Positions 5,968-8,413 of a DNA stretch of 24,395 bases are shown here, in pieces. Both the position numbers and the translations under genes were made by a program. The notes under the pieces are model-generated. The model searched no databases. It saw only the letters and a program-made list of their open reading frames with translations, and was not told the DNA's origin. Positions within the stretch are counted from its first letter, which is position 1, and each line of letters starts with the position of its first letter. The DNA is taken from positions 1 through 24,395 of the forward strand of contig CAYUTF010000050.1 of the NCBI GenBank assembly GCA_964447495.1. The letters are read 5' to 3'. The DNA comes from an uncultured archaeon (GTDB taxonomy: Archaea > Asgardarchaeota > Lokiarchaeia > Sigyniarchaeales > SOKP01).

Positions 5968-6240
5968 TTTTCTCTGAGTGGTTAATCGGAATTACCACAA
6001 AATTTAATCAAAAAAATGAATCTATATTGAGTTTTGTAATTGTAAAAATAATTTTAAAAAAAGAATAATCTTAGGTTTTGAATCTTTTTCGAGGTAAAAA
6101 CCCTGAGATAACTGTTCCTCTCGAACTAATCTTTACCACTATAACTAGTTGACACAAAATATTACCAACAGCAATATTAATAATTAATGATAAACAGAAT
6201 CATTCATAGGGAGATTAAATATGAAAATATATTTTCAATC

Positions 6241-6266
6241 AAAAAAGGAAAAAAAAAATAAAAAAA
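6241..6266 (-). terminator. U-rich terminator of acs
   Basis: A-rich run on the + strand (aaaaaaggaaaaaaaaaataaaaaaa) is a T tract on the minus strand just after the acs stop at 6275. Confidence 0.55.
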
Positions 6267-6274
6267 TTAATAAT

Positions 6275-8322
6275 TTAATCGATTTTTATATCCATTTTCT
6301 TTCTTTCAGCGAGTAAATCATCCACTACCGATGGATCGGCTAAAGTGGTGACATTCCCGATTTCCGTTCCTGAAGCAATCGCTTTCAAGATTCTTCGCAT
6401 TATTTTTCCACTTCGAGTTTTGGGAAGTGAATCAGCAAATTGAACGACATCTGGCTGAAAAACAGGGCCAATTTCTTTCCGAACATGCATTTTAATTTCA
6501 TTTTCCAACTCTTTGGATTTCTCTACCCCAGCCATCGTTGTTACAAATGCCCATATTGCTTGACCCTTAATCTTGTGAGGGAATGGCGCTACTGCAGCTT
6601 CTGCAACTTTTGGATGGGACACAATTGCACTTTCGACTTCCATTGTACCGATTCGATGTCCAGAAACTTTTATAACATCATCTAAACGTCCTAAGATCCA
6701 GTAGTAGCCATCATCATCGCGTCGAGCACCATCTCCGGTGTATTCATCCCATAATCGAATTGATTTGAAATGGTGTAATAACCCGGATAACGCTCTAGAT
6801 ATGTTGACTTAAATCGCTCTGTATCTCTCCAAACATCTCGAAGCATTCCTGGCCAAGGTTGAGCCATACAAAAATAACCTCCTTCGTCAGCTTCGGTGAC
6901 TTCCTCTCCTTCAAGGTCAAAAATGATTGGCTTGATACCTAAGAAAGGTAAACAACATGAACCTGGCTTGGTTGGAGTTGCCGATGCGATGGGAGTCATA
7001 ATAAAGCCTCCTGTTTCCGTTTGCCAATATGTATCAACAATTGGACACTTGCTCTTCCCTATTACTCGATGGTACCACGTCCATGCTTCGGGATTTATTG
7101 GTTCACCAACAGTTCCAAGCACTTTAAGCGAACTAATATCATGCTTATTCACAGGTGCTTCTCCATATCGCATAAGTGCTCTAATTGCTGTTGGGGCTGT
7201 GTAGAAATGCGTGACTTTATGACGTTCAACAATGTCCCAAAACCTGTATCCGTCGATTGAGAAAGGAAATTCTCGATCGTCTACGTCAGGGTAAGTTGGA
7301 ACGCTTTCAAACATCAAGGATGTTGCTCCATTAGCTAAAGGTCCATATACAATGTAGGAATGTCCTGTGATCCAGCCAATATCTGCAGTACAATACCAGA
7401 CATCATCTTCCTGATAATTAAACACGACACGATGAGTATAAGAAGTATATAAGATATATCCTGCAGTGGTATGATTAACACCCTTAGGCTTACCTGTTGT
7501 TCCACTAGTGTATAGGATAAAAAGCGTGTCTTCAGAGTCCATATGTTCCGGTTCGCATTGTTCACTCACTCCGTCAATGAAATCATGATACCAGATATCT
7601 TTTTTAGTGTGCGGGACTTCATTTCCAGTTCGCTTAACCACGATCACATGTTCGATGGTTGGCACATCATCAATCATTTCAGCAACGTCAGCCATTTTAG
7701 GGTAAAATTTTCCTGCTCGCACCGTCTCATCGCTGGTAAAGAGCAATCGAGAGTCAGAGTCTTCAATCCTGTCTTTTACTGCTTCTTTTGAGAATCCGCC
7801 AAACACGATTGAATGAATTACGCCAATTCGAGCACACGCAAGCATAATTATGGCGAGTTCGGGAATCATAGGCAGCCAAATAGTCACTCTGTCTCCTTTT
7901 TTCAAGCCAAGTTTTCTCATTCCATTCGCTACTTTCGAGACTTCTTTTAACAGTTCGCTGTAAGTAAATTTTTTCGCATGGCCTGGTTCATCAGCTTCCC
8001 AGATAATCGCAATCTTATCACCTTTTCCAGCTTTTACATGGCGATCGAGACAATTATATGCAACGTTTAATTTCCCTCCAACAAACCACTTTCCAGGAAA
8101 TAAATCGGTCGATTCCCATACTTTATCATAAGGTTTAAACCAATCGAGCGATTGAGCTTGTTCACCCCAGAAACCTTCCATGTCGTCAATTGATTTTTTG
8201 TAGAGTGTGTGATATTCTTTAAAAGTCATCCCTGATTTCACAAATTCGGTGTTAAATTTTACTGGGTCGAATTTACGATTTTCAGTGAGGATGCTTTCCA
8301 TTTTATTATCTTCTTTCGGCAT
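6275..8322 (-). CDS. acs: Acetyl-CoA synthetase (AMP-forming), interrupted by two putative BHB introns; exons 8322..7281, 7247..6775, 6742..6275; 660 aa after splicing
   Basis: Motifs [67 protein letters not shown] and [11 protein letters not shown]. ORFs 6691..8322 and 6275..6643 join into one frame after removing 6743..6774. 2048 - 65 = 1983 nt = 660 aa plus stop. Confidence 0.95.
6743..6774 (-). other. Putative 32-nt BHB (tRNA-endonuclease-type) mRNA intron, frame-disrupting
   Basis: Intron ACCAUUUCAAAUCAAUUCGAUUAUGGGAUGAA. Outer helix UCCGG-GU / AC-A-CCGGA, central helix UAUU/GAUG (2 Watson-Crick + 2 G-U), bulges ACA and AAU, inner stems CCAU/AUGG and AAUC/GAUU. Cutting after bulge nt 2 gives PGYYYTGDG. 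Confidence 0.85.
7248..7280 (-). other. Putative 33-nt BHB mRNA intron, in frame
   Basis: Intron ACGAUCGAGAAUUUCCUUUCUCAAUCGACGGAU. Outer helix CCUG/CAGG, central helix ACGU/ACGG (3 Watson-Crick + A.G), bulges AGA and AUA, inner stem CGAUCGAGAA/UUCUCAAUCG (9 of 10 paired). Cutting after bulge nt 2 gives YPDVDRFW. Confidence 0.8.
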
Positions 8323-8413
8323 TATATTTCACAATATTGAATCTTTTGTTAATTAATTGGTTAGAATTTCTTTAATGATTAAACTCTTTAAGAATTTTAA
8401 AGATTTTTGTTCC

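What the first reader, a model, noticed from the sequence alone, without database searches (positions are those of the whole stretch)
7248..7280. Second, in-frame 33-nt BHB intron hidden inside acs
Seen: the ORF reads [19 protein letters not shown] where Acs enzymes have YPDxxRFW, an 11-aa insert. The RNA forms outer helix CCUG/CAGG (extendable by CCAA/UUGG), central helix ACGU/ACGG (one A.G mismatch), bulges AGA and AUA, and a 9-of-10-bp inner stem. Canonical cuts (AG^A, AU^A) give cct-gac-gta-gac-agg = PDVDR exactly. Two independent inserts in one gene, both fitting the EndA cut rule to the nucleotide, are unlikely to be chance. Because this one keeps the frame, it is invisible to ORF callers, and retention could give an isoform with 11 extra residues (inference).
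Basis: partly seen in the sequence, partly recalled or inferred. Interest (0 to 1): 0.88.

Follow-up and report, generated by a model that had tools for sequence, protein, structure and literature searches.

The report
Hidden in-frame mini-intron in archaeal acs
A 33-base insert inside the acetyl-CoA synthetase gene of an Asgard archaeon has the shape and exact position of an intron cut out by the tRNA-splicing enzyme, one of at least eight such mini-intron sites in this gene across its relatives, although no RNA read yet shows the splice.

Summary
On the minus strand, 7280..7248 is a 33-nt in-frame insert ([11 protein letters not shown]) in acs. All 54 insert-free orthologous alleles I aligned read TYPDVDRFW-like there, as does solved Salmonella Acs.

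[quoted passage not shown] Random 33-nt genomic segments score this well 4 times in 10,000. Removing this insert and the 32-nt one at 6774..6743 gives a 1983-nt CDS of 660 aa, with no gaps against intact orthologues.

The same intron sits at the same site in two other DNA records, with BHB-forming bases invariant and the interior changed.

Family-wide, acs carries mini-inserts of 30-60 nt at 8 sites. Several shift the frame or hold stop codons, so they must be removed. One shows clear covariation.

The genome encodes two EndA paralogues and RtcB.

Missing: no RNA contig covers the junction, so neither splicing nor the proposed retained isoform is shown.

Verdict: very likely a genuine, annotation-invisible BHB intron. 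It is a new member of a kind reported in coding sequence only for crenarchaeal cbf5.

The parts
7281..8322 (-). acs exon 1 (1042 nt; ACAS_N and most of the AMP-binding domain)
7248..7280 (-). the finding: a 33-nt in-frame mini-intron. It consists of 1 bulge base, a 10+6+10 hairpin, the central-helix strand ACGG and 2 bulge bases.
7243..7290 (-). the full bulge-helix-bulge motif including exon bases: outer helix 7290-7287 / 7246-7243; central helix 7286-7283 / 7253-7250; bulges 7282-7280 and 7249-7247; inner stem 7279-7270 / 7263-7254; loop 7269-7264
6775..7247 (-). acs exon 2 (473 nt)
6743..6774 (-). second mini-intron, 32 nt and frame-shifting (family site 1515). Central helix UAUU/GAUG, bulges ACA and AAU. 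Also present in L018 and L041.
6275..6742 (-). acs exon 3 (468 nt including the stop; AMP-binding_C)

Best explanation
The 33 nt at 7280..7248 (minus strand) are a bulge-helix-bulge mini-intron in the acs pre-mRNA of a Promethearchaeota (Asgard) archaeon.

Proposed mechanism:
- The transcript folds so that exon bases CCUG-ACGU pair with CAGG (exon 2) and ACGG (intron 3' end), around a 10-bp intron hairpin. This presents two 3-nt bulges.
- The genome's two-subunit splicing endonuclease EndA cuts after the second base of each bulge.
- RtcB joins the exons, giving ...TYPDVD|RFW... as in intron-free orthologues.

It is one member of a population of 30-60-nt mini-introns at 8 or more sites in acs in this archaeal family.

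Shown: the insert, its absence from orthologues, the geometric fit at independently defined cuts, conservation of the BHB-forming bases, that sister inserts must be removed, and that the enzymes are encoded.

Inferred: that EndA and RtcB act on this RNA, and how efficiently.
For: (1) Lineage-specific insert. 54 of 57 aligned family alleles covering the site lack it, and 3 carry it: the window, L026 = G079 of another genus, and metagenome contig L041. Solved Salmonella Acs aligns with an 11-residue gap there.

(2) BHB score is 11/12 at the orthologue-defined cut, against 0.0004 for random genomic 33-mers. Insert shuffles match it 9 times in 200,000.

(3) Removing both inserts gives a 1983-nt CDS of 660 aa with 0 internal stops and ungapped 574/660 identity to L002.

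(4) In the three DNA copies, all outer, central, bulge and basal inner-stem bases are invariant. All 8 differences between the window and L026 fall in the 18 interior bases. 87% of cells pair, against 26-39% when the partners are slid.

(5) Differences in the insert show no third-codon-position bias (2/3/3 at positions 1/2/3), whereas the exons give 49/26/235. Fisher p = 0.026.

(6) The exon-only outer helix is 4/4 Watson-Crick in 3 of 3 intron-bearing alleles. It is 4/4 in only 2 of 54 intron-free ones, and in none with all Watson-Crick pairs.

(7) Sister inserts of the same build:
- Sites 940 and 1515 shift the frame.
- Site 1268 has in-frame stops in 9 of 12 copies, site 1194 in 2 of 5, and site 1431 in 1 of 2.
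- Their exons stay under purifying selection.
- 5 of the 8 sites have a copy scoring >=10.
- Site 1268 shows 6 pairs with changes on both sides, and 0 of 500 shuffles reach its covariation score.

(8) The same A.G position is tolerated in site-1194 introns that carry stops.

(9) The BHB conformer is only 0.6-2.1 kcal/mol above the MFE, among the lowest values in the class.

(10) The machinery is encoded. There are two ~200-aa EndA paralogues, each with the N and catalytic domains, and RtcB. The abstract of PMC5829648 states that (alpha-beta)2 EndAs cut non-canonical introns.

(11) The DNA is real. In an independent DNA run, X2, one contig runs from exon 1 across the 5' junction through the whole insert. 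A second contig bridges the 32-nt insert.
Against: - No RNA evidence for or against the splice was obtained.
- The local fold is not significantly more stable than shuffles (z = -1.35 and -1.59), and the MFE leaves the central helix largely open.
- The central helix has only 3 of 4 pairs.
- With three DNA copies there is no pair with changes on both sides. In L026, 2 inner-stem cells are unpaired in the fixed register.
- All four known variants are open in frame, so read-through translation is possible. These are 3 DNA copies plus the protein-only P0002.
- P0002 reads GDIEYLNSIGRY. This changes residues encoded by the central-helix strand. Its DNA could not be fetched, so I cannot say whether the helix is kept.
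- A genome-wide search in G000 for BHB candidates that fuse ORFs found no clear further cases.
Confidence: 0.76

Rival explanations
1. The 33 nt are ordinary coding sequence: an 11-residue loop insertion that is translated and never spliced. Its hairpin-forming potential is incidental.
For: The insert is in frame and free of stops in all 4 known variants. Gene callers translate it, as in database proteins P0001 and P0002. Part of the peptide is conserved (D.E[FY]..SI..Y). The fold z-score is weak.
Against: The conserved residues are those encoded by the BHB-forming bases. Substitutions show no third-position bias, unlike the exons. The insert lies exactly at canonical BHB cut sites. Same-build in-frame inserts elsewhere in this gene hold stop codons in some genomes. 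54 of 57 alleles and solved Acs lack the loop. Exon synonymous sites co-vary with its presence.
Confidence: 0.14
2. The insert is skipped during translation (ribosomal bypass, as in T4 gene 60 or the yeast mitochondrial 'byp' elements) rather than removed from the RNA.
For: The size (about 30 nt) and the hairpin resemble bypass elements. This resemblance is recalled knowledge, not a tool result.
Against: There are no matched take-off and landing codons: the site reads GAC before the gap and UAC AGG at its end. For the 32-nt insert, bypass from UAC to UAC would give one Tyr fewer than the orthologues, while BHB cuts give GYYYTGDG exactly. BHB geometry recurs at several sites.
Confidence: 0.03
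3. The insert is an assembly artefact or a miniature transposable element (MITE-like insertion) that has inactivated or is decaying the gene.
For: It is a short insert with inverted-repeat character. The window comes from a metagenome-assembled genome.
Against: There is no other copy in the 3.8-Mb genome (blastn-short). Contigs of an independent DNA run hold the same sequence. The same insert occurs in two other assemblies. Exons are intact and under purifying selection. There is no second intact acs orthologue in G000.
Confidence: 0.03

Closest known systems
cbf5 pre-mRNA intron of Crenarchaeota (Watanabe 2002; Yokobori 2009, PMC2738675: abstract and outline read)
   Same: It is a BHB-type intron inside a protein-coding sequence and is removed by the tRNA-splicing machinery. 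Its distribution is lineage-specific with secondary loss. It also causes gene-prediction problems.
   Different: cbf5 has a single site in a single gene of hyperthermophilic Crenarchaeota and is verified by RNA. Here the gene is a metabolic one (acs) in mesophilic Asgard archaea, with 8 sites in the family and up to 6 in one allele. The introns are very short (30-33 nt, with 42 and 60 nt at one site). This one is in frame and stop-free, so invisible to ORF callers. It is not yet verified by RNA.
BHB intron in the 5' UTR of Haloferax volcanii HVO_1309 (PMC7714728: passages read)
   Same: It is an mRNA substrate of archaeal EndA outside tRNA and rRNA. That paper states that cbf5 was the only other mRNA case known.
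   Different: It lies in the untranslated leader, not in the reading frame, and it was shown in vivo and in vitro.
tRNA introns of Asgard archaea (bioRxiv 10.64898/2026.10.13.758758: abstract and passages read)
   Same: The phylum and the splicing motif are the same. The preprint also reports repeated gains and a patchy distribution. It reports two EndA paralogues in 44 of 60 genomes, as found here.
   Different: Those are in tRNA genes. My term search of that text found no occurrence of 'mRNA' and one incidental 'protein-coding'.
HAC1/XBP1 unconventional mRNA splicing in eukaryotes (recalled knowledge, not checked here)
   Same: It is non-spliceosomal removal of a short intron (26 nt in XBP1) from a coding sequence, using a protein endonuclease and an RtcB-type ligase.
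   Different: The endonuclease is Ire1, which recognises twin stem-loops rather than a BHB. That splice is regulated and shifts the frame.

Membership tests
Archaeal BHB intron (EndA substrate) | [quoted passage not shown] | tested here: met
   Bulges are AGA and AUA. The central helix ACGU/ACGG has 3 of 4 pairs (A.G at the position next to the outer helix), so it is a slightly relaxed form. The same mismatch occurs in site-1194 inserts that carry stops.
Archaeal BHB intron (EndA substrate) | Flanking helices h (exon-exon) and h' (intron) | tested here: met
   The outer helix CCUG/CAGG is 4/4 Watson-Crick. The inner stem has 9/10 pairs.
Archaeal BHB intron (EndA substrate) | Cuts after the second base of each bulge restore the uninterrupted gene | tested here: met
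   The spliced reading PDVDRFW equals the orthologues. The whole CDS is 1983 nt / 660 aa with no stop and no gap.
Archaeal BHB intron (EndA substrate) | Helices supported by covariation | tested here: inconclusive
   There are only 3 DNA copies, with 0 pairs changed on both sides. The helices are conserved rather than covarying. The sister intron at site 1268 does covary: 6 pairs, 0 of 500 shuffles.
Archaeal BHB intron (EndA substrate) | Excision seen in RNA (junction reads, circular intron) | tested here: inconclusive
   The one read-laying run gave no RNA contig over either junction. No further call was available.
Archaeal BHB intron (EndA substrate) | Splicing endonuclease and RNA ligase encoded by the host | tested here: met
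   Two EndA paralogues with N and catalytic domains and RtcB. The catalytic or structural roles of the two subunits are inferred only.
Translated protein insertion | Codon-level purifying selection (third-position excess of changes), as in the flanking exons | tested here: not met
   The insert gives 2/3/3 changes at codon positions 1/2/3, against 49/26/235 in the exons. Fisher p = 0.026, on a small sample.
Translational bypass element | Matching take-off and landing codons flanking the gap | tested here: not met
   The site reads GAC ... UAC AGG at the 33-nt insert. Bypass at the 32-nt insert would lose one Tyr relative to the orthologues.
MITE / repeated mobile element | Multiple copies in the genome | tested here: not met
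   Only the self-hit exceeded 16 nt in G000.

The most novel reading that the evidence does not exclude
Asgard (Promethearchaeota) archaea carry an overlooked population of ~30-nt BHB mini-introns inside protein-coding genes. acs has 8 sites, and an aEF-2 paralogue also has one. The in-frame, stop-free ones such as this are spliced only part of the time. One gene would then yield two proteins, Acs with or without an 11-residue loop. That would be alternative mRNA splicing by the tRNA-splicing machinery in the closest prokaryotic relatives of eukaryotes.
Probability: 0.12. Interest if true: 0.9.

Novelty: new member of a known kind. Interest (0 to 1): 0.72.

Why it matters
BHB introns inside archaeal coding sequences have been reported for one gene only, crenarchaeal cbf5. 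PMC7714728 says so, and my five literature searches found nothing on Asgard mRNA introns.

Here a central metabolic gene of Asgard archaea carries mini-introns at 8 sites, up to 6 in one allele. They are scattered over the gene tree in a way that calls for repeated loss or spread.

The in-frame, stop-free ones are silently translated by gene callers. Database proteins P0001 and P0002 contain three or four of them, so they corrupt protein catalogues.

If confirmed by RNA, this makes two things testable in the lineage nearest to eukaryotes: how protein-dependent mRNA splicing coexists with coupled translation, and how introns are gained and lost.

Tried and rejected
**RNA evidence.** Of 24 runs listed, 4 are RNA. 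I laid 3 RNA runs (X11, X18, X23) and 1 DNA run (X2).
- RNA contigs at >=95% identity lie only on 6471-6621, 7064-7230, 7423-7659, 8189-8339 and 8286-8400.
- None covers 7248-7280 or 6743-6774, and no joints were reported.
- So there is no verdict on splicing.

**Repeated element.** blastn-short of the insert against G000 found only itself.

**Rfam.** No match at E <= 1 in 6200-8400.

**Genome-wide scan of G000.** I looked for canonical BHB candidates (score >=11, length 24-70) whose removal fuses long ORFs.
- 267 combinations were observed against 191 expected, in 213 clusters.
- The 45 best look like ordinary gene junctions (stop, ribosome-binding-like motif, ATG).
- The known 32-nt intron (score 10) fell below the threshold.
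- So the scan is insensitive and gives no evidence of further intron genes in G000.

**Neighbouring 1250-aa gene.** There are no internal stops in any of the 42 listed matches from 40 genomes. It is too divergent to reveal in-frame inserts.

**aEF-2 across 135 family genomes.** Among the 150 matches listed (105 more were not), only G092 showed 30-nt inserts.

**More copies of this intron.**
- A metagenome pattern scan gave 1 contig.
- A pattern search of 154 genomes of the order gave only G000 and G079. The patterns were exact, so diverged copies are missed.
- A protein search gave P0001 (same sequence as the L041 translation at the sites compared) and P0002.

**Enforced-pair fold.** A first attempt without blocking the bulges let extra pairs form and gave misleading values. 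One search replaces it.

**Not run.** I considered structure prediction of the retained isoform and did not run it, because a low-confidence loop would not decide anything.

Full report
**What is there.** The window is contig C50 of a 3.8-Mb, 98%-complete genome. Its relatives are deposited as Promethearchaeota / Promethearchaeia, that is Asgard or 'Loki' archaea. On the minus strand, an acetyl-CoA synthetase gene is split into a 543-aa ORF (6691..8322) and a 122-aa ORF (6275..6643). The 543-aa ORF reads [20 protein letters not shown]. The 33 nt 7280..7248 encode the extra 11 residues.
- outer helix CCUG/CAGG
- central helix ACGU/ACGG, with one A.G
- bulges AGA and AUA
- a 9-of-10-bp inner stem

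**Is it an insert?** Yes. I collected 60 acs sequences of the same family from genome handles, named genome contigs and one metagenome contig. Of the 57 that cover the site, 54 lack the 33 nt and read TYPDVDRFW-like. Three carry it: the window, L026 (= G079, a different genus) and metagenome contig L041. Solved Salmonella Acs (2p2j and related entries) aligns with an 11-residue gap there.

A search of 5.8 billion proteins with this region found only two clusters that score above the insert-free plateau. P0001 equals the L041 translation at the sites compared. P0002 is a fourth variant, GDIEYLNSIGRY.

**Does it fit the splicing motif better than chance?** The cut sites are fixed independently by the orthologue alignment, with three equivalent shifts because of a shared AC.
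- At one of these the canonical geometry scores 11 of 12: outer 4, central 3, inner 4, counting 4 pairs each.
- Random 33-nt segments of the same genome reach 11 or more in 0.00043 of 400,000 trials, taking the best of three shifts.
- Shuffling the insert gives a central helix of >=3 plus >=9/10 inner pairs 9 times in 200,000.
- Plain MFE folding is unimpressive (z = -1.35 and -1.59) and leaves the central helix open.
- With the bulges kept single-stranded, the BHB conformer lies only 0.6, 2.0 and 2.1 kcal/mol above the MFE in the three copies. These are among the lowest of all inserts in the gene, which range from 0.4 to 13.4.

Removing 7280..7248 and 6774..6743 yields exons of 1042, 473 and 468 nt. 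That gives a 1983-nt CDS of 660 aa with no internal stop. It is collinear without gaps with the intact orthologue L002, at 574/660 identical.

**RNA-level rather than protein-level constraint.**
- In the three DNA copies every base of the outer helix, central helix, both bulges and the four basal inner pairs is invariant. All 8 differences between the window and L026 lie in the 18 interior bases.
- L041 differs from the window at three bases. One turns A-U into G-U and two lie in the loop.
- Changes in the insert are spread 2/3/3 over codon positions, while the exons of the same pair give 49/26/235. Fisher p = 0.026, on a small sample.
- The exon-only outer helix is perfect in 3 of 3 intron-bearing alleles. 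It forms 4/4 in only 2 of 54 intron-free ones, and never with all Watson-Crick pairs. So synonymous exon sites go with intron presence, even though the window and L026 exons are only 77% identical.
- Against this, with three copies there is no compensatory double change. Two inner-stem cells of L026 are unpaired in the fixed register, although a shifted register (read by hand from the alignment, not scored) gives a 7-bp hairpin.

**The context that carries most weight.** In this family acs holds mini-inserts at 8 sites. In coordinates of the intact L002 CDS they are:

| Site | Length (nt) |
|---|---|
| 940 | 32 |
| 1036 | 42 or 60 |
| 1042 (this one) | 33 |
| 1084 | 30 |
| 1194 | 30 |
| 1268 | 30 |
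| 1431 | 30 |
| 1515 | 32 |

- One allele (L016 = G023) has six of them.
- Sites 940 and 1515 shift the frame. In-frame stops occur in 9 of 12 copies at 1268, 2 of 5 at 1194 and 1 of 2 at 1431.
- The exons remain intact and change mostly at third positions. G000 has no second copy of this orthologue. These inserts must therefore be removed from the RNA.
- They share one build: one base, a hairpin, four bases that pair with the exon just upstream of the 5' cut, then two bases. Five of the 8 sites have a copy scoring >=10 at an allowed cut, against a null of 0.0024.
- At site 1268, with 11 distinct sequences, 6 pairs change on both sides and 0 of 500 shuffles reach the covariation score. 84% of cells pair, against 28-48% when the partners are slid.
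- The site-1194 inserts, including the two with stops, have the same A.G at the same central-helix position as the finding.

**Machinery.** G000 encodes two ~200-aa EndA paralogues, each with the N-terminal and catalytic domains, and RtcB. That they form an (alpha-beta)2 enzyme of broad specificity is an inference from two sources. One is the abstract of PMC5829648. The other is passages of the 2026 preprint, which reports two paralogues in 44 of 60 Asgard genomes.

**Distribution.** On a FastTree of the exon-only alignment, intron-bearing alleles are scattered. This tree used the 57 sequences longer than 1200 nt; three short ones were dropped and support values were not inspected.
- The window groups with L041 and with an intron-free allele (L035).
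- L026 sits in a distant clade next to alleles that lack the 33-nt intron.
- The interior of the intron differs between the window and L026 about as much as synonymous exon sites do: 8 of 18 against 235 third-position changes in 1362 aligned exon nt.

Both observations fit an old intron with many precise losses. They do not exclude lateral spread.

**What could not be settled.** Splicing itself. Salt-marsh metatranscriptome contigs match the gene at 95-100% identity, but none lies on either junction. An independent DNA run holds both inserts. One contig (7247-7706) runs from exon 1 across the 5' junction and through the whole 33 nt. Another (6347-7264) bridges the 32-nt insert and reaches 17 nt into the 33-nt one. 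The idea of a retained 11-residue isoform is neither supported nor excluded: all four variants are open in frame.

**Comparison with what is known.** By the passages read in PMC7714728, the only archaeal mRNA BHB introns reported were cbf5 of Crenarchaeota and a 5'-UTR intron in Haloferax. PMC2738675 (abstract) describes gain and loss of the cbf5 intron. Five full-text searches found no report of BHB introns in Asgard protein-coding genes. The 2026 preprint on Asgard tRNA introns does not contain the word mRNA. Supplements were closed.

The finding works like a cbf5-type intron and meets every membership feature I could test except direct RNA evidence. I file it as a new member of that kind, in a new phylum and a new gene. 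It is part of an unusually dense set, and it is special in being invisible to ORF callers.

**Verdict.** I put the probability that this is a spliced BHB intron at about 0.76. The main rival, a translated loop, is at about 0.14.

Noticed in passing
window 6743-6774 (minus strand): The frame-shifting insert that splits acs into two ORFs is 32 nt. It sits between GYY and YTGDG. Its central helix is UAUU/GAUG and its bulges are ACA and AAU. It also occurs in L018 (G018) and L041, with a U-A to A-U swap in the inner stem of L018.
   Followed up: yes
L016 (G023), L026 (G079), L025 (G066), L018 (G018), L041: These are intron-rich acs alleles. L016 has 6 of the 8 family sites. L026 has 5 before its contig ends. 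L041 has 5, and L025 and L018 have 4 each. Sites 1036 and 1042 are only 6 nt apart and never occur together.
   Followed up: partly
L158 (G092:C25) and L156 (G092:C13): Two aEF-2 paralogues of genome G092 each carry a 30-nt insert with an in-frame TAA. The one in L158 has a 4/4 central helix (UCAG/CUGA), bulges AUA and AAG and a 9-bp hairpin, but a weak outer helix. The one in L156 sits inside the GHxDHGK motif and shows no canonical BHB at the only cut that restores the motif.
   Followed up: partly
proteins P0001, P0002: These public predicted Acs proteins of 573 aa translate straight through three or four in-frame mini-inserts and end in the frame-shifted 32-nt insert. So annotation pipelines mis-state this protein.
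   Followed up: partly
window 7247-7264, DNA run X2: The contigs of the independent DNA run break inside the 33-nt insert, with an 18-nt overlap between two contigs. This might reflect strain variation at the site or only a graph artefact.
   Followed up: no
G000 whole genome: ARAGORN tRNA genes, 15 of them with an intron of 7-807 nt. Several calls look doubtful, and non-canonical positions are not covered by this tool.
   Followed up: no
L023, L024 at L002 CDS nt 215: There is a 6-nt insertion (TAGTGG / AGAGAA) in two alleles of one genus. It is too short for a BHB intron and looks like an ordinary two-codon indel.
   Followed up: no
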